Of a DNA stretch of 64,000 nucleotides, positions 2,771 through 15,637 are shown piece by piece. The translations under genes were made by a program, and so were the position numbers. The notes under the pieces were generated by a model. That model worked only from the letters and a program-made list of their open reading frames with translations, was not told the DNA's origin and ran no database searches. Source of the stretch: an uncultured Bacteroidota bacterium (GTDB taxonomy: Bacteria > Bacteroidota > Bacteroidia > AKYH767-A > OLB10); contig CAINEC010000193.1 of the NCBI GenBank assembly GCA_903847585.1, forward strand, positions 52,507-116,506, written 5' to 3'. How positions within the stretch are numbered: position 1 is the stretch's first letter; the number at the start of each line of letters is the position of its first letter.

Positions 2771-3964
2771 ATGAAATCAATTTATCGCTTTATTCAAATA
2801 ACTTTCTGTTTTATAGCCTTTAGTTGCAACAATCCGACAGAAAAGAATTCGCCTACAACACAAACTACTACTGAAACTAAGCAAGATAGTTCATCAGCAC
2901 CAACTGCAGATGTTAAAACGATCAAAGTCAATATTGATTCATCCTACAACAATCTATCTCATTTAATTGCAGGATACCCTATCAACTATTACCAACCGCA
3001 GTGGGACAAAACCTTCATTGATTCGTTTAATAAAAATGTCAATCAGAAAATGGCCTCGATTGAAAACTCTCGCTTATCTAAAATTAAGAGTTGGAATGAA
3101 AACAATATAAAATCAAATGGTGCTAATGACACCAACTTTGTTTTTTATCCATTTTCTGGTGGTGATTTCATTCATATGGCTTGGCTTTATCCGAATGCGA
3201 ACGAGTACTTTATGATTGCGCGTGAATATGTAGGTGATATTCCTAATTTGTTTGCTAAAGACTCAGCTTATACTTCTCAGTATTTGAAAGACATCGAATA
3301 TGTTTTGCGCGATATTTATAACAAGAGTTATTTTATCACCAAAAACATGAGTGCCGATACCAAACACAATACTAAAGTAAATGGTATGCTTCCATTGATT
3401 TTATGGGGAGCAGTTCGAACGGGACACGATATCAGTCAGGTATCATTTGGTAAAATTGATGACGAAGGCAATTTCACCGCGGTAAACAATCATGAAAAAA
3501 GCAATATAGTTCAAGTGATATTGTGGAATAAAAAATTAAATAAACAACAAAAGGTCACTTACTTCTGCTGCGACTTAGCTAACGACGAACTAGTATCACA
3601 TCCTGGGAATATGATATTCATGGAAAAATCTATAGGAGCAAACTGTAATACTTTTATTAAATCTGCCTCTTACCTATTACACTATGGTAGTTTTACTACT
3701 ATCAGAGATTTTGTTCTATCTAAGAGTAATTACCTTGTTCAAGACGACACAGGAATTCCATACAAACATTTTAATAATGAGCAATGGAAAGTAAGTGTTT
3801 TTGGAGTTTACGAAAAACCGGTAAGAGATTTTAGTGATAATTTATATCAGGAAGATTTAGATTCAGCATATAAAACGCCATCCTATCTTGGTGATCTTAA
3901 TTTTTCATTGGGATATCACTGGGGATCCAAAAAGCAGAATCAAATTGTTGCTAAGAAGAACTGA
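2771..3964 (+). CDS. Hypothetical lipoprotein.
   Basis: N-terminal FIAFSC lipobox and a Thr/Ser-rich linker; a conserved-looking FYPFSGGDF motif; no family recognised. Confidence 0.4.
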   Translation: MKSIYRFIQITFCFIAFSCNNPTEKNSPTTQTTTETKQDSSSAPTADVKTIKVNIDSSYNNLSHLIAGYPINYYQPQWDKTFIDSFNKNVNQKMASIENSRLSKIKSWNENNIKSNGANDTNFVFYPFSGGDFIHMAWLYPNANEYFMIAREYVGDIPNLFAKDSAYTSQYLKDIEYVLRDIYNKSYFITKNMSADTKHNTKVNGMLPLILWGAVRTGHDISQVSFGKIDDEGNFTAVNNHEKSNIVQVILWNKKLNKQQKVTYFCCDLANDELVSHPGNMIFMEKSIGANCNTFIKSASYLLHYGSFTTIRDFVLSKSNYLVQDDTGIPYKHFNNEQWKVSVFGVYEKPVRDFSDNLYQEDLDSAYKTPSYLGDLNFSLGYHWGSKKQNQIVAKKN

Positions 3965-3973
3965 AAGAACCAA

Positions 3974-6900
3974 TTAGTATTTGAGTTCTTGTCCTACGTG
4001 AAGCACATTCAATCTTGAATTATTTTTCTTTCTTAGATCTGTGATGGAAATACCGAGTCTTCTACTAATACTATAAGGTGTATCACCTAATTTAACCACA
4101 TAAATACCATGACGCTTTTCCATCATCTCAGAACTCGATAATGTTAAAGAATCTTTTGGAGTAACAACTGGCTTCACAACGTGAGCTGTATCTAATTCTG
4201 TCATACAAGGACAAAGTATTTTCTTTTGACTTTGAGTAAAATCATATCCTGAAAGCGGTTTGTATTCTTTGATTCTTGTCCTCACATTATTATAGCCTTT
4301 GTAATTATTTTCTGTACACAACTCCCAATACTTTAATGCCTGAGTGGAATTGAAATCACAAAACTGCATCAATGATAAAGCAGACAACATACCTGATTGA
4401 TGCCATCCGTTCCAGCAATGTATATAAACCTTCTCCTTCTCGTTATCAATTTTATTGTTAACCCGATTCAATAAATCTGCATAAAACTCCATTAAAAAAG
4501 TATCTGATATTACTGGCCTGCAGTCATAATCTAAACCAATGCTTTTTAACGAATCTATTTTAAACGAATCATAACGTTGTGTAAAATTTTTTGAATAGAG
4601 GTAATAGATTTTATTAAATCCAGCTTCATGTAAATTATCTATTGCATAATAAGGCAAAGGATTTTGAACATAATATTTTGGAATGGAATCTTTCAAATCA
4701 AGATTGTTACCGCCACCTCTATAAAGCAAACCTGGAAATACAGCTCTTACATTGCGTGTACCTAACATAGAGGAATCACCTTTCCCTGAATTATCAATAT
4801 ATCGTTTAAGTACAGAATTCCCTTTATCACAATTCGTTTTAATTGTGTCTACATCGCTTGAATTCTTTACAGCTTTATTATCCACTTGTCCATTACATGA
4901 TGCGGCCATCATGCACAAAAATAATACGATAGGCAAATTCGTGAGTTTATTATTGCGCTTACGAATAAGGAATAACACTATCAAAATAATTAGCAAACCC
5001 GAAATAATTGATATCATATAAATAGTGCTGTTTCCAGACTTTTCTTTATTAACGGATGCGTTAAATTTTAATTGTTTAAGCTTTGATATTGAAATATTCT
5101 TGACCTTAATTTTACCATTCTCCTTTTGAATCAAATAACCTGCATGTAAAATTAACATAGAATCGCTCACAAGATAATGTAAACTATCTATCCATGTATG
5201 ATTTATCGTATCAATAAGATTAAACTGTACATCATTTAAAAAAGAACTTGATTCAAATGCTGGAACTGCTTTCAAATTCTTACTTTGAATATTCGAATTA
5301 AACAAGTTCAAGTTATTAGTAAGAATTATTGAAGAAGATGCAGGGATAACTACATTACTTAAATCAACAGCCAAACCGTTTCGATCTTCATATAACTTTA
5401 CACCCTTTAAAGAAATATCGCTAGTGTGTTTGTTAGCCAACTCAATAAATAGCAACGGCTCTTTCTTCGAATTATTGATATAGTATTTTCTAATCTCTAA
5501 ACTATCTTTTTTAGACGATGCTTTTAGATGACTAAAATTTGCAGTAAGATTTAAATTCGATAACAGCTGAACATTCCTGCTCGATGTTTTTACTCCATCA
5601 CTCCATCCATCAAATTGATATTGATGATTTGAATTCAGAGCAGATAATTCAAAAGGAATACTTCCAAAGAAATAACCATTAATTGCATTCGTATGAACAA
5701 CCGAATTATTTATAGTGAGTCCTTTGAATGAATTATTATTTTGACCAACTGTTAGTCGATAAATCGAATCAATTGAGAAAGTGATTTTCAAATCTTTAAA
5801 TAACGTTGTATCGCGAACAGAAAAATATTGCTTTAGCTCATTAAACTTTTCTGTCCAGGCTTCCATATCCTCGCCATACAAATTTTTTCTGCGATTGAAA
5901 TGACGAGGCAGCTCCCCTTTTATTTTTTCTGCACGTAAATCCAAACTACGACCAAAATAAGACGCATTCAAATAAGTCGCATTCAAGTAACAATACTGCG
6001 TTACAAATCGATTTCGCAGTGTATCATTTTTCAATAAATGTTCAAGTATTGTAGTAGTATAGCTAGGGTTATACCATAGTCGTTCTTTAGGCAAACAACG
6101 ATTCTGAATAAAATTCGATTCAGCAAATGCACATGCTTGATCAGCATCATAAACTACCCATTTCCATTTACCATCCTTATGCTTGTAAAAACGAACATTA
6201 CCACGTGAGTCGATGTTTGTTATATACGTTTCAAATATTTGATAATTGAAATAATTTTCGATGTCGATACTATCTTTTATCAAATTAATAAAATCAGGCT
6301 TATCAGAACTCTCTATGATATAAGAAACTAATGAATTGTATTCAGGACTTTCATCTCCTGAACCTTGCAATTCAATAAAATCACCTTTCTTCCAATCATA
6401 GCGGTATTTAAAATAATCGCCATTAACTTTCTCTCTCAAGTTATGTATTCCGTAATAAATACCATTGACATATAAAATCACCTGACGATAATCTTTCGTA
6501 TTTAAATCAATATCCGCTGCTACCTGACTAATTGCAATATCTTTTATTCGTGTTGCATGTTGATCATTTCCAGAAGTTCGAAGCACTACATGCTGATAAT
6601 CTCTGAAAGGTAAATTCTGGAATAGTTTTACTTTTATCTTACTGCGTTCATATTTATTATCTCTCGCCGATAACTGCAAAGACTTTTCTTTCCAACCTAA
6701 AGTCATACCTCCGTAAGTCTTAACATCAAGCGCTAATTCATCAACCAATTCATTGTAAAAATAAAACTGTGCAAAGCATGATATTGGTTTTTTATCCCAA
6801 GCCTTACCAACTACTTTTGTTTTTGCTTTTTTATTCTTTTTCTTTTCTTCTCGATTAGCAACTTCGCCATAGTAAATTCCTTCTGGTGGAAAAAACTCGA

Positions 6901-7291
6901 TTGAATCGACAATTATTGAAACAATTGGAATCTGATGAGGAGAATTAATAAAATAGGTTCCTAGGTATTTACTATCTTTTCCATTCTCACCCTTCAAAAT
7001 TATTGTTAACGAAGATGTTTCTGTGATTGTAAAATTCAAGCCCGGATACGTTTCTCCTTTTTCATTTGAAACAATTATTCTTGCATTTGATGTATCGATT
7101 CCTGTAATTGAAATTGCAACTGGAGATTTATAAAATCCTGAAAGATGATTTATCTTAAAAGTTGTAGCCTTCTCCAGACTGTAAATCATTAAGGGCTTTT
7201 TAGCTGCCGTATCTTTGACATTGGGAATATCTTGTCCGAATGCAAATTGACAAATTATAACTAAAAGAAGCACGAGTCGTTGTTTCATCAT
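3974..7291 (-). CDS. Composite ORF: signal peptide, CotH-like kinase-fold domain, TM helix, lipobox-like hydrophobic segment, dual-specificity-phosphatase-like domain (HCxxGxxQSG), and a C-terminal LysM. It may be two genes fused in frame.
   Basis: CotH-like core (VLRTSGNDQHATR, YVNGIYYGIHNLREK, NIDSRGNVRFYKHKDGKWKWVVYDAD) is paralogous to 13271..15637. A TM helix plus RKRNNK lies at about 4970..5030, followed by LPIVLFLCMMAASC. VYIHCWNGWHQSGMLSALSLM aligns with the DSP P-loop VxVHCxAGxSRSxT. The C-terminal YVVKLGDTPYSISRRLGISITDLRKKNNSRLNVLHVGQELK is a LysM. Confidence 0.55.
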   Translation of the reverse strand: MMKQRLVLLLVIICQFAFGQDIPNVKDTAAKKPLMIYSLEKATTFKINHLSGFYKSPVAISITGIDTSNARIIVSNEKGETYPGLNFTITETSSLTIILKGENGKDSKYLGTYFINSPHQIPIVSIIVDSIEFFPPEGIYYGEVANREEKKKNKKAKTKVVGKAWDKKPISCFAQFYFYNELVDELALDVKTYGGMTLGWKEKSLQLSARDNKYERSKIKVKLFQNLPFRDYQHVVLRTSGNDQHATRIKDIAISQVAADIDLNTKDYRQVILYVNGIYYGIHNLREKVNGDYFKYRYDWKKGDFIELQGSGDESPEYNSLVSYIIESSDKPDFINLIKDSIDIENYFNYQIFETYITNIDSRGNVRFYKHKDGKWKWVVYDADQACAFAESNFIQNRCLPKERLWYNPSYTTTILEHLLKNDTLRNRFVTQYCYLNATYLNASYFGRSLDLRAEKIKGELPRHFNRRKNLYGEDMEAWTEKFNELKQYFSVRDTTLFKDLKITFSIDSIYRLTVGQNNNSFKGLTINNSVVHTNAINGYFFGSIPFELSALNSNHQYQFDGWSDGVKTSSRNVQLLSNLNLTANFSHLKASSKKDSLEIRKYYINNSKKEPLLFIELANKHTSDISLKGVKLYEDRNGLAVDLSNVVIPASSSIILTNNLNLFNSNIQSKNLKAVPAFESSSFLNDVQFNLIDTINHTWIDSLHYLVSDSMLILHAGYLIQKENGKIKVKNISISKLKQLKFNASVNKEKSGNSTIYMISIISGLLIILIVLFLIRKRNNKLTNLPIVLFLCMMAASCNGQVDNKAVKNSSDVDTIKTNCDKGNSVLKRYIDNSGKGDSSMLGTRNVRAVFPGLLYRGGGNNLDLKDSIPKYYVQNPLPYYAIDNLHEAGFNKIYYLYSKNFTQRYDSFKIDSLKSIGLDYDCRPVISDTFLMEFYADLLNRVNNKIDNEKEKVYIHCWNGWHQSGMLSALSLMQFCDFNSTQALKYWELCTENNYKGYNNVRTRIKEYKPLSGYDFTQSQKKILCPCMTELDTAHVVKPVVTPKDSLTLSSSEMMEKRHGIYVVKLGDTPYSISRRLGISITDLRKKNNSRLNVLHVGQELKY

Positions 7292-7308
7292 CAGCTTGAA
7301 TACACAAT

Positions 7309-8328
7309 TTAAATCACTTTGTAACTTAAGATTATTTCAACTTCGGGACCTCTCAATATTCCTATGTGAAGTTCGCCAAGTTTTAATTGCTCCATTGTTT
7401 TTGAAAAAGTGTTTCCAGATTTATTATCGAATAATATTAAATCTTGATTATTAAGCAACACAATGGTATCATTCGACAACTGTTCAATTTCGAAATAAAG
7501 AGTTGAGGCTGCTTTTATTATTTTATTATAAGGAGCGCTATTAATTTTGAAAGATACACTCTCCATATTAAAAACAGTAGGGAGACTAAATTTAGGGTCG
7601 GTTTGTGATTTAATCAGAATACTATCCACATTGAAGCCCATTTGAAAAACAGTACTGGTTTCAAAATACATCATCTTTTTAAATTGTTCACGAGTAACTT
7701 TTTTGGGTAAAAATTGATATTTACTGCTATCTGGAAAATGATTAAACAAAAACTCTTTAGGGTTTACATCAAACCAATAAACGTTATAAATCGATTTTGA
7801 TTTAGCCTTACCATTTATATTCTCAGCATATCCACTACCCCAAGTAGGATCCATTAAATGCCATTGATCATTATACTGGACAGCATTCCAAGCATGATTA
7901 ACTCCAGTGACTGGCATACCTAATTTAAACCCGTATCCTTTGGCAAAACCATCAATCGACACACAAGGAATATTTAATTCATCACATATGGCTTTAAACA
8001 AAAAACTATAACCTGCGCATACCGCTTTACGTGATTTAAAAACTGCTTCCGCACTAGGATCATTAAAAACATGAGAATTGAAGGCATCATCATCATAAGA
8101 GATATGATGAGCCACCCAAGAATAAACTAAGCGTGATTGATAATTTTTATTATTGGTGATTTTCTGAAAGTAATTCGCCAATTTACCAATTGACTCTTCA
8201 TTCTCTACAGGAACATTTTTTCCTAAGCTATCTAATTGAGCATAGCTGTAATTTTGAGCATAGCTTAATTGAAAACTAAAGCACAATAAAATTAAAATTA
8301 TTATTCGCATACTTATTTTCTGATACAT
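7309..8328 (-). CDS. Transglutaminase-like (TGc) cysteine-protease-fold protein, secreted.
   Basis: AVCAGYSFLF ... NHAWNAVQYNDQWHLMDPTWG gives the Cys-His-Asp triad context of the transglutaminase-like superfamily; signal peptide present. Confidence 0.65.
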   Translation of the reverse strand: MYQKISMRIIILILLCFSFQLSYAQNYSYAQLDSLGKNVPVENEESIGKLANYFQKITNNKNYQSRLVYSWVAHHISYDDDAFNSHVFNDPSAEAVFKSRKAVCAGYSFLFKAICDELNIPCVSIDGFAKGYGFKLGMPVTGVNHAWNAVQYNDQWHLMDPTWGSGYAENINGKAKSKSIYNVYWFDVNPKEFLFNHFPDSSKYQFLPKKVTREQFKKMMYFETSTVFQMGFNVDSILIKSQTDPKFSLPTVFNMESVSFKINSAPYNKIIKAASTLYFEIEQLSNDTIVLLNNQDLILFDNKSGNTFSKTMEQLKLGELHIGILRGPEVEIILSYKVI

Positions 8329-9053
8329 CGGATTGAGAACCCATTTTCAAGAACAAAGTTACCAATTCCTTGCTCCATATCAGATTGGCAGTTACCAATA
8401 TAAAGTGCTTTAAGCTCCGTATTCGTAGAGTCAGTAGGTGTATTCACCCAAAAAAAAGAGCAAGCCCCTTCTGCTAAATCCCCATTGAATAAATAACCGC
8501 CTTTATTTGCTCCAAAACCAGATTGATTGTTACTTACTACTTTTCTTGAATAAAGAGATTGCTCCGCCTCATTCCAATCTTCAACACTCCAATCATATTT
8601 CGCCAATTTGGTCATTACCTTTTCTGTAAACTTTTCACGCCCCCCAAGATATGCCGCGAGCATAAGATAGTCATCAGCAATAGGTAACCGATATCCCTTG
8701 GGACATACTGAAACAGAGTCTAGCAATACATAGCCATTGTAAAGCACATCGCCATTTTTCATAACATAACAGCATGGCATCTTACGTTCGTTATACTTAT
8801 TCCAGTCTTTGATCGACTTTACTTTTTTAATCTCTCTGCCATCAGAAAAGGTAGTTGTACTAACGTTATTGGACATCCATACTTGAACACCAATTTTTAC
8901 ATGAGGCACGGAATCCAGTAATTCAACGGAATCGATTTTCGCTACCTTTTCTTGCTTAGGCTCTGTGATTAGCTCCAAATCTTTTTTCTCCACCACATCA
9001 CATGCGCAAAAACACAAGATTAAGAATCCTGACAAACGATAAATTATCTTCAT
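8313..9053 (-). CDS. FISUMP (Fibrobacter succinogenes major paralogous) domain lipoprotein. It overlaps the upstream TGc gene by 16 nt.
   Basis: VQVWMSNN ... CPKGYRLP ... FWVNT ... GFSIRCIRK matches the FISUMP pattern (WMAENL, CPxGWRLP, SVRCV); lipobox LCFCAC. Confidence 0.55.
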   Translation of the reverse strand: MKIIYRLSGFLILCFCACDVVEKKDLELITEPKQEKVAKIDSVELLDSVPHVKIGVQVWMSNNVSTTTFSDGREIKKVKSIKDWNKYNERKMPCCYVMKNGDVLYNGYVLLDSVSVCPKGYRLPIADDYLMLAAYLGGREKFTEKVMTKLAKYDWSVEDWNEAEQSLYSRKVVSNNQSGFGANKGGYLFNGDLAEGACSFFWVNTPTDSTNTELKALYIGNCQSDMEQGIGNFVLENGFSIRCIRK

Positions 9054-9109
9054 TTTAATGAATTAAAAGCCGAGGCGAAAATAGTAAAATCCTGAAACTT
9101 AGCCCTTAT

Positions 9110-10873
9110 TTACTTACGCTTTATATATAACTCGATCTTATGACGTCGTTTGACGTATAGAATACACTCCTTCCCTGCCATTTTAAGCTCATTTTCTCGC
9201 TTTTTAGCTAATTTGAGATTATTAAACACTTCCACTTTCTTATACACTTTCAAATCGATGTTCATCTTAGGATATTTGACTACTGCACTTGTCGTATCTT
9301 TATCCTTGACTGGCTTTTTAACTTCAACAACAACAGGAACAACATCTTCTTCATTTGGAACATTTACAGGATTTGACTCAATCATTCCAAATCGATAGAG
9401 GTTACCATCTCTACAAGCAATATAAATACTCCCATTAAAGCAAACGGGAGTAGACTCAAAATAACCTTTTCGAGTAGCTATCTTTTGAAAACTAGCATTA
9501 GAACCTATTTTATAGATATTAATTGAACCGTATCCAGCCATTACTAATCTATTTTTTGCAAATACAGGAGTTGAAATAGAAGTGCAGACCTTTTCTCTAT
9601 AATGTAATTTCGGACAAGGGTATTTCGTTTCACCATCAGGACCTAATACAAGAGAATCCGATAATTCCTTATAACGAATAACATTAAGATAACCATCAAT
9701 TCCAGTGAATGCTGCAAGGAAAGGATCATTATTATTTCGATAACGATCGTTCACCGCACATGACCCAACAACACCACCAATCCAACTCGAATATTTCTTG
9801 TCTTCAGTAGGATAAAACCATTGTACACATTGATTTGGAGGCAGATTTGGATTCAACTTAAACACTCCACCATGACCTTTGATATATTGCTTTTCAACAG
9901 CAATTAATAAGCAATTATCATCTGTTACGACAGGAGTCCCATCCATATCAGAGCCGATATAAAAATCCCAATCAATAATTTTCTTTTTCAGATTATAACC
10001 AAATACATGTCCGCAACCCGAAGCAATATATAAGTGATCACCAAGTTTGGCAGGTGAAGCCTCGGTTACAAGATTACCACCATGCTGATGTGCATCTTCT
10101 TTCGAATACAGAAGCGTTTTATTATAAACTAACGGCGAGCAATATCCTTTATTTGATTTTACATTTTTTAAGGGATCGAAAGAAACCCAGTATCCATTTT
10201 CTAAACCAATATATCCAGTATCATTCACAAACAAGGCTGATGCATCCACATCATTGCTGTAACACTTCGTTCTTTGCATTGGCATTCTCCAAACTTCTTT
10301 TCCATTAGCACAGTGTAGCGCTCTAAAACTAGTAGCAGCAGAATCTTTTAATGAAACATGAACACCTTTACGACTACCTTGAAAAATATAAAATGGGTTA
10401 CCTTCTGAATGATTATTATTTCTCCAAATTGTACCAGTGCCTTTTAAAATATCTTCGTACTCATATTGCCATACAAGAGAAGCATCTGATAGTTTAATTT
10501 TCTTTAATGTATGATCAAAACTAGCTTGATAAATAAAATATTCACCTTGTTCTTTTGTAATGAGCGGTTGACCTGTCCACCCTGCTCCACTCCATACTTC
10601 TACTCCTGACTGAGCATTTACTATTGTTTCGCCTTTACCAAGTTTATATTTCCAAATTACATTAAGCGAATCAGAGCAAGAATCCCCATAAAATTTTCTC
10701 GTTTCATCACCTAAAAAAGTTCCAATAACAACTTGATAGGGGTCTTCTTTTTTCTTACTTGTAGCAGAATTATTATTCTTTATTTCGGATTGACTACATC
10801 CAAAGATTAGAATTAAACAACCCCAAACAATAATTTTAAAAAAGCTGCGTCTCATTTGATTAATGCGTTGCAA
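9110..10873 (-). CDS. Hypothetical lipoprotein, possibly a beta-propeller.
   Basis: Lipobox IFGCSQ; repeated Gly/Trp/Tyr-rich blades with a PQQ/BamB-like feel; a Lys-rich C-terminal tail; no specific family recognised. Confidence 0.35.
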   Translation of the reverse strand: MQRINQMRRSFFKIIVWGCLILIFGCSQSEIKNNNSATSKKKEDPYQVVIGTFLGDETRKFYGDSCSDSLNVIWKYKLGKGETIVNAQSGVEVWSGAGWTGQPLITKEQGEYFIYQASFDHTLKKIKLSDASLVWQYEYEDILKGTGTIWRNNNHSEGNPFYIFQGSRKGVHVSLKDSAATSFRALHCANGKEVWRMPMQRTKCYSNDVDASALFVNDTGYIGLENGYWVSFDPLKNVKSNKGYCSPLVYNKTLLYSKEDAHQHGGNLVTEASPAKLGDHLYIASGCGHVFGYNLKKKIIDWDFYIGSDMDGTPVVTDDNCLLIAVEKQYIKGHGGVFKLNPNLPPNQCVQWFYPTEDKKYSSWIGGVVGSCAVNDRYRNNNDPFLAAFTGIDGYLNVIRYKELSDSLVLGPDGETKYPCPKLHYREKVCTSISTPVFAKNRLVMAGYGSINIYKIGSNASFQKIATRKGYFESTPVCFNGSIYIACRDGNLYRFGMIESNPVNVPNEEDVVPVVVEVKKPVKDKDTTSAVVKYPKMNIDLKVYKKVEVFNNLKLAKKRENELKMAGKECILYVKRRHKIELYIKRK

Positions 10874-10922: not shown

Positions 10923-11909
10923 ATGAAAAACACAAAACGAGTTACCATCTTAATAACACTTATTTATTTCACGATTAGCTTAACGAGTTCTTTGTATGGT
11001 CAAATTGCAATTACGACAAATCAACTTTTTCAATCTAACAATAAAGTTTTAGTGGCAGCTCACAGAGGTAACTGGAAGGATTTTCCAGAGAATAGTATTC
11101 CCGCAGTACAATCCTGCATAGGTACGGGCATTGACATTATTGAAATAGATGTTCAACGCACGAAAGATGGAGCCTATGTTTTAATGCATGATGGAAGTAT
11201 AGACCGAACAACAAATGGCAAAGGGAAAGTAAGTGATTATACATTAAAACAACTTCAGCGATTTAAACTCAGAGGAAAGGGCGATACCATAACGGAATAT
11301 CGAATTCCGACACTAGACACGATTTGAAAAATCACAAAAGGTAAAATTATTCTCAATATTGATAAGAGCAGTGGTCGCTTCAACGAACTCACAAAACTGA
11401 TAGACTCACTTGAATGTAATCAGCATGTATTATTAAAAGGAAATGGCAAGGGAGAATACTTTAAAAGTTTAAATAATCAGGATACGAATAGCATTTACTA
11501 CATGCCTATTTTAAGCACTAAAAGCAATGTAGATTCTTTTATGCTTAGTTACCAAACACCATTATTTGAATTTCTATTAACTAATGACACCTCCATTTAT
11601 TCGAGTCTTGTGTTTCTAGATTCACTGAAAAAAATGAATGTAAAAATATGGTATAATGCTTTGTTTAATTCCATTTCTGGAGGTCATACAGAAAGTATAG
11701 ATGCAATTAATTCATGGGATTGGTTTATTGGTCATAATGCTTACGTAATACAAACAGATTATCCTTTTCACTTAGTAAAATATTTAAATCAATTAGGACT
11801 TCATGAGAGATTAACGAAAGAAGATCAATATGACTTAACCAAGTTGCCAGTTCGTGAAGCGATTGAAAAAAAAGAATTAATTGATTCCAGCGAAATAAAA
11901 AGTAAGTAA
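10923..11909 (+). pseudogene. Glycerophosphodiester phosphodiesterase (GDPD family) interrupted by one in-frame TGA at 11325..11327. The track splits it into 10923..11327 and 11502..11909.
   Basis: The N-terminal part carries the GDPD signature AAHRGNWKDFPENSIPAVQSCIGTGIDIIEIDVQRTKDGAYVLMHDGSIDRTTNGKG. The same frame continues stop-free after the TGA as KITKGKIILNIDKS... to the end of the domain. Confidence 0.6.
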
Positions 11910-11998: not shown

Positions 11999-13102
11999 CT
12001 AATTCGCTTTTTTCTTGAATCCGAGATGCGTATAAACTGCTCTTTCACCTCCATCACTTGGACGATTAATCACACCGAGTTGCTTTGAATACATTAAGCT
12101 ACTACCACCCTGATCGCAGGCCATTGCATTATACACACCAACCTTTTTAAATACTTCAACAGCTTGTGTCATTGTAACACCAATACTATATAACGGCTTT
12201 CGTCCATCAACCACCATCATAAAAATACGGTTACCATCTTTATTCAACCCAATTAGCGTACGAGGAAAAAAATGATCTGCTGTATAATCATGTTTTGATA
12301 TTGCACTTTCCCCATTCATCATCATATCAAACCTCCCCCAAATGGCATTGTGCATTTGTTCTGAGGGCTTCTTTACTACATCTTCTTCTTTTGAATAATA
12401 AACTTGATTGTTGCTATCAAAATAAATAAAAGGACGATACCTCGTATCCTCCAACATGATGGGGTTACCGTTAACAATAAAATTTCCAATCCAACTGCCA
12501 AGTGGTGCTTCACGCGCAGGCGCTGTTCCTGCCTCACCATTAACTGCTATATCCCAATTATTCTTTTTAGCCACTTTAGCTGTACGCAGTTTAACAGACA
12601 TCGCAGTATCTAATCCAACATTGTATTTGGTCAAATCAACTGTAGCAAGAAACACGACGTTAAGCGGTTCAGCCATGTTAATTTTAATGATCTCAAGTCC
12701 TTCTTCTGCTTGTAAAAAATCAACAGATTGAACTTTGCCAAAAGACAATTTCTTTAATTCTTCAAAATACTGTTCCAAATAAGATCTTTTATTACCACTA
12801 TCTTTTACAACTACAATTTGCTTTTTTGTTTTAGCATCTATTTCTATGTTATGTAGTTGATAATCGCCGATTGCTATTGCACCAATGATTAAAAAGAAGA
12901 TAGTAGAAGATGTATATGCATAAATTTTTACTGCTGGTTGAATAGAGGTTTTCTTGAAAGCACCTAAAATAAAAAAAGTAAAAAGCCAAAAAACGGAGGA
13001 GCAAAATATCCAAAGTAACCCTTGAAAGGCCAAGGGTAATTCAAAAACCCTAAGTAGAACCATCCACAAATCATCAATTAAAATATTTACAAAATCACCC
13101 AT
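11999..13102 (-). CDS. Phosphodiester glycosidase family protein (NAGPA/DUF2233-like) with N-terminal TM helices.
   Basis: FFPRTLIGLNKDGNRIFMMVVDGRKPLYSIGVTMTQAVEVFKKVGVYNAMACDQGGSSLMY matches the phosphodiester glycosidase core (RTAIG, VVDGR, LDGGGSS). Confidence 0.6.
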   Translation of the reverse strand: MGDFVNILIDDLWMVLLRVFELPLAFQGLLWIFCSSVFWLFTFFILGAFKKTSIQPAVKIYAYTSSTIFFLIIGAIAIGDYQLHNIEIDAKTKKQIVVVKDSGNKRSYLEQYFEELKKLSFGKVQSVDFLQAEEGLEIIKINMAEPLNVVFLATVDLTKYNVGLDTAMSVKLRTAKVAKKNNWDIAVNGEAGTAPAREAPLGSWIGNFIVNGNPIMLEDTRYRPFIYFDSNNQVYYSKEEDVVKKPSEQMHNAIWGRFDMMMNGESAISKHDYTADHFFPRTLIGLNKDGNRIFMMVVDGRKPLYSIGVTMTQAVEVFKKVGVYNAMACDQGGSSLMYSKQLGVINRPSDGGERAVYTHLGFKKKAN

Positions 13103-13270: not shown

Positions 13271-15637
13271 ATGATATTTGCCCCACTTGAAACAACTGCA
13301 TTCATTTACCAACGAATGATTAAATCGAGTTACTTGAAGTTAACTTTTTTAGCTATTATCTTTTTTTTCACTCAAAAAGATAGTTATGGCCAACACTTCA
13401 CACCTATAGTGAATGCGCAGCGATTTGGAATTAAATTCAGTCATTTACCAGGCGAATTTGATTCGAGCATCAATTTAAAAATCACCCGTCCTGCAAATAT
13501 CAAATTAGCATTTAGAAACAGCGACAGTACTTCAATACCAATTAAGGGCGATACAATCACTATTAAAATAACAACAACCGCTTCCATTTACATGACAGTA
13601 AATATAGCAGGACAAGTGGTTGATTCAAGTTATACAGGAACTTATATAATTGGAAAAAAATCAGATTTGCCAGTTATCAATTTGCACTTAAAAAGAAAGT
13701 ACTTTGATGGTGATGAAGGTATCATCAATGGATATATGGATTATGAGAATCATAAGCGATTTGGGAAAGTGTGGAGCAAGTTTTCCATCCCTACTTACCT
13801 TGAATATTACGAGGATAAATCGTTTGTTTTTGGGGAGACTTATCGTGTAAAACCATTTGGTGGATGGACATTAGGAATGAGGGAAAAATCATTGAGAGTA
13901 TACTCAGAAAAAACAGAAGGCGCCTCAAAAATTAAAATTAGTCCTTTTGAAAATAAACCATACCTATCCTATAAAAGTATTGTTCTACGTACATCGGGAT
14001 CTGATCAAGGAACTACAAGACTAAAAGATATTTCTATTTGCTCGCTAGCAAGAGACCTTGGATTAGACTATCAGGATTACAGACAGGCAGTTCTTTTAAT
14101 CAATGGTGAATATTGGGGTATTTATGATATCCGTGAAAAAATAAATTATGAATATTTAAAATATAATCATGGTGCCAGCAAAGACAAAACTCAAACTGAA
14201 TTGTTGGAGCTTGACGGAATGCGTAATGCAGATTATAAGTCGATGACAGAATATATTGGCAAGGACTTTAAAAAAGAAGAAGCATTTGACTCAATCAATC
14301 AAAAAGTTGATATTGAAAATTATATTAAGTACATCATCTTACAAATACATATTCAAAATATCGATTCGAGAGGTAATGTAAGATTCTGGAAGAGCAAATC
14401 GTTGGATGATCGTTGGCGCTGGATTTTTTATGACTCTGATTTAGGTTGTGAAAACAGCAGCGTAAATATGAATTATCTTGGTAAGCGTTTGAGCCCTGTA
14501 CAAACGGATTGGTACAATCCAACATGGTCAACAGTGATTTTAAGGAACCTTGTTAAAAACGAAGAAATAAAAAATTATTTCATAAATCAGTATTGTCTAT
14601 TACTAGGAACAAAGCTTCATACCGACACCATAAAAAATCGTATTGAGTATTTTGCAAATAATATTCGTGACGAAATTCCTCAACACGTCAACAGAAGAAA
14701 TAGTATTTACGGCGAAACCGTAGAGAAATGGAATAACAGAATTGCCAACTTCAAAAAATACTTCGACTTAAGAAATCCAACAGCCTATTCACATCTTAAA
14801 GATTGCTTTGGATTAACACAAGATGCCGTTAGTTTAACCATCAAAACTAATTTACCACAGGTAAAATCATTGAACATTTATCGTTCAAGTTACAACTTCA
14901 GTTATATCAATGGAAATTTCTTTCCGGAGGTTCCTATTACCGTTAAAGCAAGCAATGTTGATCATCTATATTACTTCTCTCATTGGAAACAAAATTCAGA
15001 CACGAATAGTCTAACTACAATCTATCCCGGAAAAACAAAAGAACTGGAAGCAGTTTATATGCATAAACCGTATTCGGATTTGCACAAGAAAATTATTGTT
15101 GCCAAACTATTTTTCGAACAATCTAAGAAGGACACATTATTCACGATTGGATTGATGAATATTGGCAATGATTCTTTAGAGCAGATTAAAATTAATTACT
15201 CTTGCAATGGATATAATAACAATTATCAATTTACGATTAACAAGATAAGAGTTGGAGAAATAGTTTACTTTACTAATAAACCTAAGAAATCAAATAAGTT
15301 ATTAAGTGAGAGTAATTACAATCAAATTTCATTACCAGAAGGATTTGATTATCGAGGTGGCCGATTAGTTTTTGCTGATATGCACGGAGCTATTATCGAT
15401 ACGCTTTTCTTAAATGTGCCAGACACTGCTGCAAGATACAATCACCTAATAAAAGCTACGCGTAATATTCAGAATGGAAAATGGATGTTTGGCAATTATG
15501 AAATAAAATTTGTGATACCTGAAAAACCAATTAACTACAAATTATACGTTGCCATTAGCCTTGGAGCATTAATTATTTTAATTGCACCGATTGTTTATTT
15601 TAGAAGTAGAAGAAAAAAGGCAAAACAGCAAAGTTGA
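13271..15637 (+). CDS. CotH-like kinase-fold protein, secreted, with a C-terminal TM anchor and basic tail. The likely true start is the Met at 13316.
   Basis: VLRTSGSDQGTTRLKD, LINGEYWGIYDIREK and NIDSRGNVRFWKSK...WRWIFYDSDLG match the CotH Pfam core. The C-terminus is YVAISLGALIILIAPIVYF-RSRRKKAKQQS. Confidence 0.55.
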   Translation: MIFAPLETTAFIYQRMIKSSYLKLTFLAIIFFFTQKDSYGQHFTPIVNAQRFGIKFSHLPGEFDSSINLKITRPANIKLAFRNSDSTSIPIKGDTITIKITTTASIYMTVNIAGQVVDSSYTGTYIIGKKSDLPVINLHLKRKYFDGDEGIINGYMDYENHKRFGKVWSKFSIPTYLEYYEDKSFVFGETYRVKPFGGWTLGMREKSLRVYSEKTEGASKIKISPFENKPYLSYKSIVLRTSGSDQGTTRLKDISICSLARDLGLDYQDYRQAVLLINGEYWGIYDIREKINYEYLKYNHGASKDKTQTELLELDGMRNADYKSMTEYIGKDFKKEEAFDSINQKVDIENYIKYIILQIHIQNIDSRGNVRFWKSKSLDDRWRWIFYDSDLGCENSSVNMNYLGKRLSPVQTDWYNPTWSTVILRNLVKNEEIKNYFINQYCLLLGTKLHTDTIKNRIEYFANNIRDEIPQHVNRRNSIYGETVEKWNNRIANFKKYFDLRNPTAYSHLKDCFGLTQDAVSLTIKTNLPQVKSLNIYRSSYNFSYINGNFFPEVPITVKASNVDHLYYFSHWKQNSDTNSLTTIYPGKTKELEAVYMHKPYSDLHKKIIVAKLFFEQSKKDTLFTIGLMNIGNDSLEQIKINYSCNGYNNNYQFTINKIRVGEIVYFTNKPKKSNKLLSESNYNQISLPEGFDYRGGRLVFADMHGAIIDTLFLNVPDTAARYNHLIKATRNIQNGKWMFGNYEIKFVIPEKPINYKLYVAISLGALIILIAPIVYFRSRRKKAKQQS

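What the first reader, a model, noticed from the sequence alone, without database searches (positions are those of the whole stretch)
3974..7291. One 1105-aa ORF joins a CotH kinase-fold domain, a TM helix, a lipobox-like segment, a phosphatase-like domain and LysM; possible fusion of two genes
The paralogous CotH gene at 13271..15637 ends right after its TM helix and basic tail. In this ORF the equivalent TM (IYMISIISGLLIILIVLFLI) and RKRNNKLTN are followed, with no stop, by LPIVLFLCMMAASC, a lipoprotein-type h-region plus lipobox. An ATT at 4964..4966 or a TTG at 4934..4936 could serve as an internal start for a separate MRKRNNKLTNLPIVLFLCMMAASC lipoprotein carrying the DSP-like and LysM domains. 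Alternatively it is a genuine single protein with an out-in-out TM hairpin that places both the CotH and LysM domains outside the cytoplasmic membrane. Either way a predicted kinase-fold enzyme is directly coupled to a phosphatase-fold and a peptidoglycan-binding module.
Basis: partly seen in the sequence, partly recalled or inferred. Interest (0 to 1): 0.7.

Follow-up and report, generated by a model that had tools for sequence, protein, structure and literature searches.

The report
CotH–phosphatase-fold fusion with internal signal peptide
This is a real, evolutionarily conserved fusion of two normally neighbouring cell-envelope genes, a CotH kinase-fold enzyme and a peptidoglycan-binding phosphatase-fold protein that lacks the essential catalytic arginine; the second gene's signal peptide survives in the middle of the protein and probably lets signal peptidase cut the product back into two.

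Summary

- **Not an artefact.** 48 non-identical homologues (30-91% identity) have the same in-frame junction.
- **A true fusion.** Other genomes encode the two halves as adjacent genes, in either order. The unfused second gene starts with an ordinary signal peptide that aligns with the internal hydrophobic segment here.
- **Junction.** 45 of 48 junctions keep a small-x-small|Gln site (Bacteroidota "Q-rule" signal peptidase I site; shuffles give 11%). The lipobox is confined to the query's own clade and P0025.
- **Best reading.** One precursor forms an out-in-out hairpin, with both enzymes in the periplasm. It is probably cleaved at the internal signal peptide (not proven).
- **Implication.** A simple kinase/phosphatase couple is doubtful. 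The recurrent neighbours, a NAGPA phosphodiester glycosidase and GDPD, point to wall-associated phosphodiester chemistry (inferred).

The parts
3974..7291 (-). Whole ORF, 1105 aa: a CotH / TM hairpin / Arg-less PTP-fold / LysM precursor
   Evidence: ORF; full-length homologues of 1063-1196 aa at 30-91% identity.
7235..7291 (-). N-terminal signal peptide, aa 1-19 (MMKQRLVLLLVIICQFAFG|QD), with a signal peptidase I type site and Gln at +1
   Evidence: Sequence. The same pattern occurs in other secreted proteins of the window. The Q-rule is described in PMC5837995.
5807..6715 (-). CotH kinase-fold domain, aa 193-495; invariant K203, E287, D361, N365 and D382
   Evidence: Pfam PF08757, E 1e-30. 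Invariant columns. AF2 model pLDDT 85. Best PDB matches are B. cereus CotH 5jd9/5jda, E 3e-10.
5183..5518 (-). LTD-like beta-sandwich region, aa 592-703
   Evidence: Pfam PF00932 at 27.3 bits, below the 34.3-bit cut-off. The same family is listed in the precomputed Pfam annotation of many homologues.
4964..5023 (-). TM1, aa 757-776 (IYMISIISGLLIILIVLFLI): stop-transfer anchor of the CotH half, equivalent to the C-terminal TM of the paralogue
   Evidence: Mean hydropathy over 19 residues is 2.95. Median TM1 length in the family is 20 aa.
4946..4963 (-). Basic cytoplasmic loop, aa 777-782 (RKRNNK). It corresponds to the basic tail of unfused CotH plus the n-region of the partner's signal peptide.
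   Evidence: K/R-rich loops occur in nearly all 48 junctions listed.
4898..4945 (-). Internal signal-peptide h/c-region, aa 783-798 (LTNLPIVLFLCMMAAS), with a hydrophobic core of only 12 residues
   Evidence: It aligns with the N-terminal signal peptide of stand-alone homologues. Median segment length is 12 aa, against 20 aa for TM1.
4886..4906 (-). Predicted processing site, aa 796-802 (AAS|C-N-G|Q): lipobox Cys799 (signal peptidase II) and/or CNG|Q802 (signal peptidase I with +1 Gln)
   Evidence: 45 of 48 junctions have small-x-small|Q. A lipobox is found only in the query clade (7 junctions) and P0025. Codon positions.
4190..4819 (-). PTP/DSP-fold domain, aa 825-1034, belonging to a small family not covered by Pfam
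4391..4420 (-). Atypical P-loop, aa 958-967 (HCWNGWHQSG): Cys959 is kept, Gln965 occupies the position of the CX5R arginine, and His964 is conserved in every P-loop read
   Evidence: The strand-loop-helix register comes from the model.
3980..4102 (-). LysM peptidoglycan-binding domain, aa 1064-1104
13271..15637 (+). Unfused CotH paralogue (788 aa) ending in a TM helix plus basic tail. It shows the ancestral state of the N-terminal half.
   Evidence: 39% identity over the CotH region.
11999..13102 (-). NAGPA-type phosphodiester glycosidase gene. This is context: the same family lies immediately downstream of the fused gene in distant loci.
   Evidence: Pfam PF09992, E 5e-23. Neighbourhood comparison (L034, L041, L042, L044, L046, L028).
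10923..11909 (+). GDPD plus DUF4996 glycerophosphodiester phosphodiesterase, present here as two ORFs. This is context: it is one intact ~400-aa gene next to NAGPA in distant fused loci.

Best explanation
**Origin.** The ORF is a genuine, ancient fusion of two functionally linked envelope genes. One is a membrane-anchored periplasmic CotH (atypical kinase fold) gene. The other is its neighbour, which encodes a secreted, peptidoglycan-tethered PTP-fold protein.

**Biogenesis (topology shown by sequence logic; cleavage inferred).**
1. The N-terminal signal peptide exports the CotH and beta-sandwich part.
2. TM1 stops transfer.
3. The RKRNNK loop stays in the cytoplasm.
4. The retained signal peptide of the former downstream gene re-initiates export of the PTP-fold and LysM half.
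5. That internal signal peptide still carries a processing site. In this clade it is AAS|C (lipoprotein type) overlapping CNG|Q. In all other clades it is small-x-small|Q for signal peptidase I.
6. The precursor is therefore most likely cut into two proteins. One is an inner-membrane-anchored CotH enzyme that keeps the hairpin. The other is a free or lipid-anchored PTP-fold protein that docks on peptidoglycan through LysM.
7. The fusion then serves stoichiometric co-expression and co-localised export.

**Function (inferred).** The two enzymes act on the same wall-associated substrate.
- The PTP-fold module keeps its nucleophilic Cys and a conserved His, but no member has the phosphate-clamping Arg.
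- The recurrent neighbours are a phosphodiester glycosidase (NAGPA) and a glycerophosphodiester phosphodiesterase (GDPD).
- The most likely chemistry is therefore installation and editing of phosphate or phosphodiester-linked groups on a cell-wall glycan or wall-bound polymer, and not a classical protein kinase/phosphatase switch.
For: **Real single ORF**
-.
- The junction is in frame, with both synonymous and non-synonymous changes, in the close orthologues L004 and L005.

**Fusion of neighbours**
- Split forms exist with CotH(+TM) followed 80 nt later by a signal-peptide/PTP-like/LysM gene (L001/L002).
- 83 module-encoding ORFs from the 83 loci held (L001-L083; 80 from the genome scan, 3 from contig look-ups) were classified: 18 fused, 9 with CotH immediately upstream, 22 with CotH nearby on the same strand (often in reversed order), 25 unlinked and 9 at contig edges.

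**Internal segment is the partner's signal peptide**
- Stand-alone homologues start with, for example, MLKLLRRNILLASLLLIGVASSAQ|KDMFGLDS. Fused ones read ...RK-YLFVWLLFVVFALPAMAQ|KKDRFGLDS, in the same register.

**Site conservation**
- 45 of 48 non-identical junctions carry small-x-small|Q, against 0.11 expected from shuffles.
- The segment has a median length of 12 aa, against 20 aa for TM1.
- The host genome follows the Q-rule (PMC5837995).

**Folds**
- (PTP/DSP).
- (CotH, 5jd9).

**Arg-less P-loop throughout the family**
-.
- The module is under the strongest purifying selection in the gene.

**Tethering to peptidoglycan**
- LysM here.
- OmpA-like plus LysM in other architectures, and a separate LysM on the split CotH partner.

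**Recurrent NAGPA and GDPD neighbours**
-.
Against: - No experiment or proteomic evidence for cleavage exists. An uncleaved hairpin would give the same topology.
- In the query clade the site is ambiguous (AAS|C against CNG|Q). Lgt/Lsp action on an internal lipobox is not established.
- No signal-peptide predictor (SignalP, LipoP) could be run. The site calls rest on the (-3,-1) rule and on conservation.
- ATP is not expected in the periplasm, so the phosphoryl donor of a periplasmic CotH is unknown.
- The substrate proposal rests only on domain composition and gene neighbourhood. NAGPA or GDPD was found by BLAST in only 6-7 of the 83 loci held, and 25 loci show no CotH within 6 kb.
- The mapping of K203/E287/D361/N365/D382 onto the Bacillus CotH catalytic residues is by motif pattern, not by a residue-level structural alignment.
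Confidence: 0.6

Rival explanations
1. Uncleaved hairpin. The protein remains one polypeptide. The second hydrophobic segment is only a re-entrant TM2 that holds both periplasmic modules together at the inner membrane.
For: The out-in-out topology is identical to that of the cleaved model. Keeping the two enzymes physically joined would be a natural reason for a fusion. No cleavage data exist.
Against: - The segment is short: a 12-residue core in the query and a 12-aa median, against 20 aa for TM1.
- It retains the c-region and the +1 Gln of a cleavable Bacteroidota signal peptide in 45 of 48 junctions, although the surrounding linker is otherwise unconserved in sequence and length.
- A pure membrane anchor has no need for small residues at -3/-1 or for Gln at +1.
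Confidence: 0.3
2. Two proteins by internal translation initiation. A non-ATG start (ATT I776 at 4964..4966, TTG L786 at 4934..4936, or GTG V772) yields a separate lipoprotein carrying the PTP-fold and LysM modules, in addition to or instead of the full-length product.
For: A product starting at I776 would look like a complete lipoprotein signal peptide. A few homologues have a Met in the loop (P0003, P0006, P0015, P0025, P0052, P0054).
Against: - There is no stop codon in any of 48 junctions, and no conserved Met or start position. Most loops lack Met.
- ATT is a very rare initiator.
- TTG L786 would delete the basic n-region.
- ATG M794/M795 would delete most of the h-region.
- In split forms the second gene uses a normal ATG after an intergenic spacer.
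Confidence: 0.06
3. Assembly or sequencing artefact that removed a stop codon between two adjacent genes.
For: Adjacent unfused versions exist in other genomes.
Against: The same in-frame junction is present in independent assemblies from ENA, Logan, JGI and NCBI, at 81-91% identity and in many lineages at 30-45% identity.
Confidence: 0.01
4. Functional rival: a classical antagonistic protein kinase / protein phosphatase pair acting on periplasmic proteins, with CotH phosphorylating Ser/Thr/Tyr and the PTP-fold module removing the phosphate, as TpbA does on TpbB.
For: CotH is a proven protein kinase in Bacillus (PMC7821199). The closest structural neighbour of the C-terminal module is the periplasmic DUSP TpbA, which dephosphorylates the periplasmic domain of TpbB. 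The catalytic Cys and the preceding His are retained.
Against: - The P-loop Arg binds the phosphate in TpbA (Arg138, PMC4409338) and defines the HCX5R motif. It is replaced by Gln, Ala, Ser or Met in every family member whose P-loop could be read.
- No invariant general-acid Asp is seen.
- Both partners are tethered to peptidoglycan.
- The recurrent neighbours are glycan and phosphodiester enzymes.
Confidence: 0.15

Closest known systems
Bacillus CotH spore-coat kinase (B. subtilis CotH; B. cereus CotH, PDB 5jd9/5jda)
   Same: Pfam CotH domain well above threshold. The model's best PDB match is 5jd9/5jda (E 3e-10, TM 0.66). The kinase-type invariant Lys/Glu/Asp/Asn/Asp set is conserved.
   Different: - Bacillus CotH works in the mother-cell cytoplasm on coat proteins (PMC7821199).
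- This one has a signal peptide and a C-terminal membrane anchor, so it faces the periplasm.
- It carries an extra beta-sandwich region and is fused to another enzyme.
- Sequence identity to 5jd9 is only about 13%.
- Donor and acceptor substrates are unknown.
TpbA (P. aeruginosa periplasmic dual-specificity phosphatase, PDB 4r0s) and Siw14 / PFA-DSP atypical DSPs (6byf, 7mom)
   Different: - TpbA has HCKHGNNR, with Arg138 clamping the phosphate (PMC4409338).
- Here the loop is HCWNGWHQSG, and no member of the family has the Arg.
- No curated family covers the module.
- It is fused or linked to LysM, OmpA-like domains and CotH.
Glucan phosphatases laforin / SEX4 / LSF2 (DSP domain plus carbohydrate-binding module)
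   Different: Those enzymes have the canonical CX5R motif and CBM20/48 modules, and they act on starch or glycogen. Here the binding module is LysM or OmpA-like (peptidoglycan), the Arg is missing, and no activity is known. The analogy is a lead, not a membership claim.
Polyproteins split at an internal signal peptide: Bradyrhizobium japonicum FbcH (cytochrome b/c1 precursor; own knowledge, Thöny-Meyer et al. 1991, not retrievable in the library), and viral polyproteins cut by host signal peptidase
   Same: One ORF encodes a membrane-anchored N-terminal part followed by an internal signal-peptide-like segment. That segment re-initiates export and offers a signal peptidase site, giving two mature proteins.
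   Different: Here both products are periplasmic enzymes of unknown function. The site follows the Bacteroidota +1-Gln rule, or is a lipobox in this clade. Cleavage is predicted, not shown.
CotH / polyphosphate-polymerase (VTC) / DUF4956 accessory gene sets noted next to Gram-positive pel loci (bioRxiv 10.1101/768473)
   Same: CotH homologues in non-sporulating bacteria sit in envelope or exopolysaccharide contexts. In six related loci the order is VTC, DUF4956, CotH, one unknown gene, then the PTP-like gene.
   Different: VTC and DUF4956 are absent from this 64-kb window. That paper does not describe the PTP-like partner or the fusion.

Membership tests
CotH kinase family (Pfam PF08757) | Significant match to the family profile | tested here: met
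   E 9.6e-31, 107.9 bits against a cut-off of 23.8, aa 193-495.
CotH kinase family (Pfam PF08757) | Atypical protein-kinase fold like B. cereus CotH | tested here: met
   AF2 model pLDDT 84.9, pTM 0.88. Top Foldseek hits are 5jd9/5jda (E 3.2e-10, prob 1.0), followed by HipA, PI3K/PI4K and Fam20-type kinases.
CotH kinase family (Pfam PF08757) | Catalytic residues (B. subtilis D228 and D251, plus the ATP-binding Lys/Glu pair) | tested here: inconclusive
   K203, E287, D361, N365 and D382 are invariant in 24 diverse homologues. Their order and spacing fit a kinase (D361 to D382 is 21 residues; D228 to D251 is 23; PMC7821199). No residue-level alignment to Bacillus CotH could be obtained: the PDB profile search did not retrieve it.
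CotH kinase family (Pfam PF08757) | Protein kinase activity with ATP | not testable with these tools
   Needs an enzyme assay. The periplasmic location makes the donor uncertain.
Cysteine-based PTP / dual-specificity phosphatase superfamily | PTP/DSP alpha/beta fold | tested here: met
Cysteine-based PTP / dual-specificity phosphatase superfamily | Nucleophilic Cys at the strand-to-helix P-loop, preceded by His | tested here: met
   H958 and C959 are invariant in alignments A1 and A3. They are present in all representatives but one, P0234, which has Asp.
Cysteine-based PTP / dual-specificity phosphatase superfamily | Arg of the CX5R signature (the phosphate clamp) | tested here: not met
   The position holds Gln965 here. 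Elsewhere it is A, Q, S, M, E, P, N or T, and it is never Arg in any of the fused, stand-alone or representative sequences whose P-loop could be read.
Cysteine-based PTP / dual-specificity phosphatase superfamily | General-acid Asp on a loop upstream of the P-loop | tested here: inconclusive
   No invariant Asp lies upstream of the P-loop in A1 or A3. Some bona fide subfamilies also lack it, and model coordinates could not be inspected.
Cysteine-based PTP / dual-specificity phosphatase superfamily | Match to a curated phosphatase family profile | tested here: not met
   DSPc gives 16-17.6 bits against a cut-off of 33.5. Only 3 of 46 members give sub-threshold DSPc or Y_phosphatase2 hits.
LysM peptidoglycan-binding domain (PF01476) | Profile match and beta-alpha-alpha-beta fold | tested here: met
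Sec signal peptide with signal peptidase I site (Bacteroidota Q-rule) | Basic n-region, short hydrophobic h-region, small residues at -3/-1, Gln at +1 | tested here: met
   RKRNNK, then a 12-residue core, then C-N-G|Q802. 45 of 48 junctions fit, against 0.11 in shuffles. The segment is homologous to the N-terminal signal peptides of stand-alone relatives.
Sec signal peptide with signal peptidase I site (Bacteroidota Q-rule) | Located at the N-terminus of the translated protein | tested here: not met
   It lies at aa 777-802, behind a 776-residue N-terminal part and a TM helix.
Sec signal peptide with signal peptidase I site (Bacteroidota Q-rule) | Actual cleavage and pyroglutamate formation | not testable with these tools
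   Needs proteomics or N-terminal sequencing.
Bacterial lipoprotein (lipobox / signal peptidase II substrate) | Lipobox [LVIMFSTAG]2-[LIVMFYSTAGCQ]-[AGS]-C after an uncharged stretch | tested here: met
   M-A-A-S-C799 is preceded by LPIVLFLC. The same holds in P0001-P0005 and L005.
Bacterial lipoprotein (lipobox / signal peptidase II substrate) | Lipobox Cys conserved among homologues | tested here: not met
   Only 8 of 48 junctions have one (the query clade plus P0025). All the others have a signal peptidase I type site.
Bacterial lipoprotein (lipobox / signal peptidase II substrate) | Lipidation by Lgt and cleavage by Lsp | not testable with these tools
   Needs globomycin sensitivity, palmitate labelling or mass spectrometry.
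Lamin-tail domain (PF00932) | Profile match above the gathering score | tested here: inconclusive
   27.3 bits against a cut-off of 34.3 at aa 592-703. The family is listed for many homologues in the precomputed annotation.

The most novel reading that the evidence does not exclude
The locus encodes a previously unrecognised periplasmic enzyme pair, made as a polyprotein and separated by signal peptidase at a retained internal signal peptide. One enzyme is a secreted CotH kinase-fold protein. The other belongs to a new Arg-less branch of the PTP fold with the signature HCxxGxH. Together they reversibly install and edit phosphate or phosphodiester-linked groups on peptidoglycan or a wall-bound glycan. 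This would be a bacterial counterpart of the glucan-kinase / glucan-phosphatase cycle. In some lineages the phosphoryl donor may be supplied by a VTC-like polyphosphate synthase together with DUF4956.
Probability: 0.18. Interest if true: 0.85.

Novelty: new variant of a known kind. Interest (0 to 1): 0.6.

Why it matters
1. **A natural, widespread bacterial polyprotein.** It would be processed by the general secretion machinery. Internal signal peptides are textbook for viruses and eukaryotes but are rarely documented in bacteria. The retained +1 Gln gives a sharp, cheap test: look for a fragment that starts with pyroGlu.
2. **A strong functional link.** Fusion plus conserved neighbourhood, in three gene orders, ties CotH-family proteins of non-sporulating bacteria to a specific partner. 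The function of those CotH proteins is an open question.
3. **A possible new chemistry on an old fold.** The partner defines a compact, strongly constrained PTP-fold family that has lost the arginine thought indispensable for phosphatase chemistry, while keeping the Cys and gaining a conserved His. It is either a new catalytic solution or substrate class on this fold, or a conserved pseudo-enzyme.
4. **A practical annotation warning.** Pipelines that call this a "protein-tyrosine phosphatase" or simply a "CotH kinase family protein" are likely to mislead.

Tried and rejected
- **PDB sequence and profile searches for CotH** returned only LysM hits. The catalytic residues could therefore not be aligned residue by residue. 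Fold search of an AF2 model recovered 5jd9/5jda instead.
- **NCBIfam** gave only sub-threshold or LysM-driven hits. This includes a weak "lipo-invert C-terminal anchoring" hit at aa 748-806 (15.8 bits against a cut-off of 37), which I regard as hydrophobic noise.
- **Literature searches** found no description of a CotH-LysM-phosphatase protein or of bacterial CotH in Bacteroidota. The search for bacterial internal-signal-peptide polyproteins returned essentially viral papers. FbcH is not in the library and is cited from memory.
- **A VTC/DUF4956 link in the window** was looked for and is absent.
- **My first automatic junction parser** mis-assigned TM1 in the query clade. It was replaced, whose three misses are two parsing errors (P0026 and L041) and one near-miss (L009, NFS|Q).
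- **Assembly error and internal non-ATG start** were considered and rejected as main explanations (see the rival explanations).
- **SignalP, LipoP and TMHMM** were not available.

Full report
**1. The observation**

The window has one uninterrupted ORF on the minus strand, 3974..7291, encoding 1105 aa.

Pfam finds four things:
- CotH at aa 193-495 (E 1e-30).
- LysM at aa 1064-1104 (E 4e-9).
- A sub-threshold DSPc match at aa 946-988 (E 0.011).
- A sub-threshold LTD match at aa 592-703.

- TM1 is I757-I776.
- ATT for I776 lies at 4964..4966.
- RKRNNK is aa 777-782.
- TTG for L786 lies at 4934..4936.
- The segment LPIVLFLCMMAAS is followed by Cys799 (4895..4897), and Gln802 comes three residues later.

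The paralogue at 13271..15637 (+) encodes 788 aa and ends just after a TM helix and a basic tail. It is 39% identical to the target over the CotH region.

**2. Is the fusion real?**

A search of 5.8 billion proteins returned three groups:
- Five close relatives (81-91% identity, 1103-1105 aa) from separate ENA, Logan and JGI assemblies.
- More than 30 relatives at 30-45% identity (about 1060-1196 aa) with the same CotH-to-LysM span.
- About 790-aa forms that stop after the TM helix, like the paralogue.

A scan of one genome per species found the C-terminal module in 384 genomes. Most are Crocinitomicaceae and Flavobacteriales MAGs. Some are Ignavibacteria/Kapabacteria and Bdellovibrio.

In the closest genomic orthologues, L004 and L005, the junction is in frame. 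It shows both synonymous and non-synonymous differences. An assembly artefact is excluded.

**3. It is a fusion of neighbours**

Searching with the C-terminal module alone found stand-alone proteins of 211-393 aa.

In a marine contig (L001/L002), an 863-aa CotH protein ends in a TM helix. It is followed 80 nt later, on the same strand, by a 344-aa protein with a signal peptide, the PTP-like domain and LysM.

I classified the module-encoding ORFs in the 83 loci held, L001-L083 (80 from the genome scan, 3 from contig look-ups), with home-made HMMs:

| Arrangement | ORFs |
|---|---|
| Fused to CotH | 18 |
| CotH immediately upstream | 9 |
| CotH nearby on the same strand (often PTP-like then CotH) | 22 |
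| Unlinked within 6 kb | 25 |
| At contig edges | 9 |

Fusion plus adjacency in both orders is classic evidence for a functional partnership.

**4. The junction**

A MAFFT alignment of the query with 40 long homologues and the 18 genomic fusions show the same plan:
- a ~20-residue TM1;
- a K/R-rich loop;
- a second, shorter hydrophobic stretch;
- then small-x-small followed by Gln (AFAQ, AMAQ, SIAQ, ANAQ and similar).

The first conserved motif of the PTP-like domain (for example DRFGLDS) comes only a few residues later.

Stand-alone homologues begin with a normal N-terminal signal peptide that ends in the same way and in the same register:
- Stand-alone: MLKLLRRNILLASLLLIGVASSAQ|KDMFGLDS.
- Fused: ...RK-YLFVWLLFVVFALPAMAQ|KKDRFGLDS.

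The internal segment is therefore the retained signal peptide of the former downstream gene.

Quantitatively, 45 of 48 non-identical junctions have [small/aliphatic]-x-[A/G/S/C]|Q at 12-25 residues after the loop. Residue-shuffled tails give 0.11. Of the three misses, two are parser errors and one is NFS|Q. The second segment has a median length of 12 aa, against 20 aa for TM1.

Gln at +1 is the Bacteroidota "Q-rule" for signal peptidase I substrates (PMC5837995). The window's own secreted proteins follow it: FAFG|QD, LSYA|QN, RANS|QN and others.

A lipobox occurs only in the query's clade (A[AS]SC or V[VA]SC, always followed by NGQ) and in P0025. A few stand-alone homologues are lipoproteins too (P0118 and P0121).

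In the query the site is therefore ambiguous. It could be signal peptidase II at AAS|C799 or signal peptidase I at CNG|Q802.

No Met or other start position is conserved in the loop. In the query the only ATGs near the junction are M759 inside TM1 and M794/M795 inside the h-region.

**5. What this means for biogenesis**

The topology follows from standard Sec logic, and this step is a sequence-based inference:
1. The N-terminal signal peptide is cleaved.
2. The CotH and beta-sandwich part lies in the periplasm.
3. TM1 acts as a stop-transfer anchor.
4. The basic loop stays inside.
5. The internal signal peptide re-exports the PTP-like and LysM half.

A cleavable c-region and the +1 Gln persist through deep divergence, in a linker that is otherwise free to vary. 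That argues the site is still used, so the precursor would be cut into two proteins. Cleavage itself is not shown. An uncleaved hairpin is the main rival.

**6. The two enzymes**

*CotH region.* The model (pLDDT 85) matches B. cereus CotH kinase best (5jd9/5jda, E 3e-10). Other atypical kinases follow. K203, E287, D361, N365 and D382 are invariant across 24 diverse homologues. This is compatible with an active kinase-type site. For comparison, B. subtilis D228 and D251 are the catalytic residues (PMC7821199).

*C-terminal module.* The model (pLDDT 88) has a Cys-based PTP/DSP fold:
- Foldseek: prob 1.0 to many DSPs.

Its P-loop, HCWNGWHQSG, is in register with HCxxGxxR(S/T)G but has Gln in place of the Arg.

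An exhaustive HMM search of 1.84 billion representative proteins, using a LysM-free profile, found only 374 clusters. In all members whose P-loop could be read, the signature is HC-x-x-G-x-H-[A/Q/S/M...]-[S/T/A]-G. The Arg never appears, and the second His is always present.

No Pfam family reaches threshold on this module.

The module is not decaying. Against L004 and L005 it shows 121 synonymous and 17 non-synonymous differences. That is the strongest constraint in the gene; CotH plus the beta-sandwich region shows 326 against 153.

In TpbA the corresponding Arg138 clamps the phosphate (PMC4409338). Calling this module a phosphatase is therefore unsafe. It works on the PTP scaffold with a retained nucleophile, but it fails a defining feature of the family.

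**7. Context and likely role**

The module is repeatedly joined to peptidoglycan-binding domains:
- LysM in this protein.
- Two or three OmpA-like domains, with or without LysM, in 500-760-aa relatives.
- The split-form CotH partner carries its own N-terminal LysM (P0046).

The window's neighbours are wall enzymes: VanY, SH3_3, transglutaminase-like, glucosaminidase, PGA_cap, NAGPA and GDPD.

In distant fused loci, NAGPA lies immediately downstream of the fusion and is followed by an intact GDPD gene (L041, L042, L044, L046 and others).

In six other loci the order is VTC, DUF4956, CotH, one unknown gene, then the PTP-like gene. This echoes CotH / polyphosphate-polymerase / DUF4956 sets noted beside Gram-positive pel loci (bioRxiv 10.1101/768473).

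My best functional guess is that the pair installs and edits phosphate or phosphodiester-linked groups on a wall glycan or wall-bound polymer. I do not favour a protein kinase/phosphatase switch. This is an inference from composition and neighbourhood only.

**8. Verdict**

- The protein is a real single ORF and an evolutionary fusion.
- The "lipobox" is a clade-specific version of a conserved internal signal-peptide cleavage site.
- The "phosphatase" belongs to a new Arg-less PTP-fold family tightly linked to CotH.

All the individual folds are known, and homologues already sit unannotated in databases. I therefore rate it a new variant of known kinds. It has moderately high interest, because it yields two crisp, testable predictions: signal-peptidase processing of a bacterial polyprotein, and a non-canonical PTP-fold chemistry partnered with periplasmic CotH.

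Noticed in passing
window 10923-11327 (+) and 11502-11909 (+): A glycerophosphodiester phosphodiesterase appears split into two ORFs (the GDPD N-terminal part and the DUF4996 C-terminal part, about 175 nt apart). In L042, L044 and L046 the homologue is one intact ~400-aa gene. The window copy may be a pseudogene, or it may carry a frameshift or sequencing error.
   Followed up: partly
L041, L042, L044, L046, L034, L039, L028 (e.g. L046: 6654-7809 and 7819-9019): In distant lineages a NAGPA-type phosphodiester glycosidase gene lies immediately downstream of the CotH-PTP-like gene, followed by GDPD. The same two families lie between the two CotH genes of the window.
   Followed up: partly
L047, L049, L052, L058, L070, L076 (e.g. 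L049: 1371-7192): The operon order is VTC domain (polyphosphate-polymerase-like), DUF4956, CotH(+TM), an unknown secreted gene, the PTP-like gene (CX5[A/M]), then WG_beta_rep. This suggests polyphosphate as a possible periplasmic phosphoryl source. It is absent from the window.
   Followed up: partly
L059-L067, L071, L072, L081; proteins P0190, P0202, P0213, P0244, P0252: An alternative architecture: the PTP-like module is fused to two or three OmpA-like peptidoglycan-binding domains, with or without LysM. The gene is immediately followed by CotH, the reverse of the order in the window.
   Followed up: partly
window 2771-3964 (+): A 397-aa predicted lipoprotein (…IAFS|C) with no Pfam match lies convergent to the target gene. 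Homologues recur near CotH/PTP-like genes in 11 fetched loci, including L001, L014, L028, L058 and L070.
   Followed up: partly
proteins P0060-P0065: Another family of ~1100-aa CotH fusions joins the CotH domain to a multi-pass LPG_synthase_TM (PF03706) membrane domain instead of the hairpin plus PTP-like module.
   Followed up: no
proteins P0074-P0077; L047: 2909-5932; L056: 2870-5959: These ~1000-aa CotH proteins have the same TM1 / basic loop / second hydrophobic segment ending in ...PAQ or ...TAQ. They are followed by a different, unannotated C-terminal domain. In L047 and L056 a separate PTP-like gene comes next. The internal-signal-peptide design is therefore modular.
   Followed up: partly
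protein P0234; protein P0183: P0234 has Asp in place of the P-loop Cys (HDYNGWHESG). P0183 (528 aa) matched the profile in two stretches, which may indicate a tandem duplication of the module.
   Followed up: no
window 3974-10873 (-); L004 and L005: The target is the last gene of a same-strand run: beta-propeller, Fib_succ_major, transglutaminase-like, then the target. Gaps are 18-57 nt or the genes overlap. The order is fully conserved in L004 and L005. L005 is labelled a Chitinophaga pinensis MAG, although its relatives are Flavobacteriales-like.
   Followed up: partly
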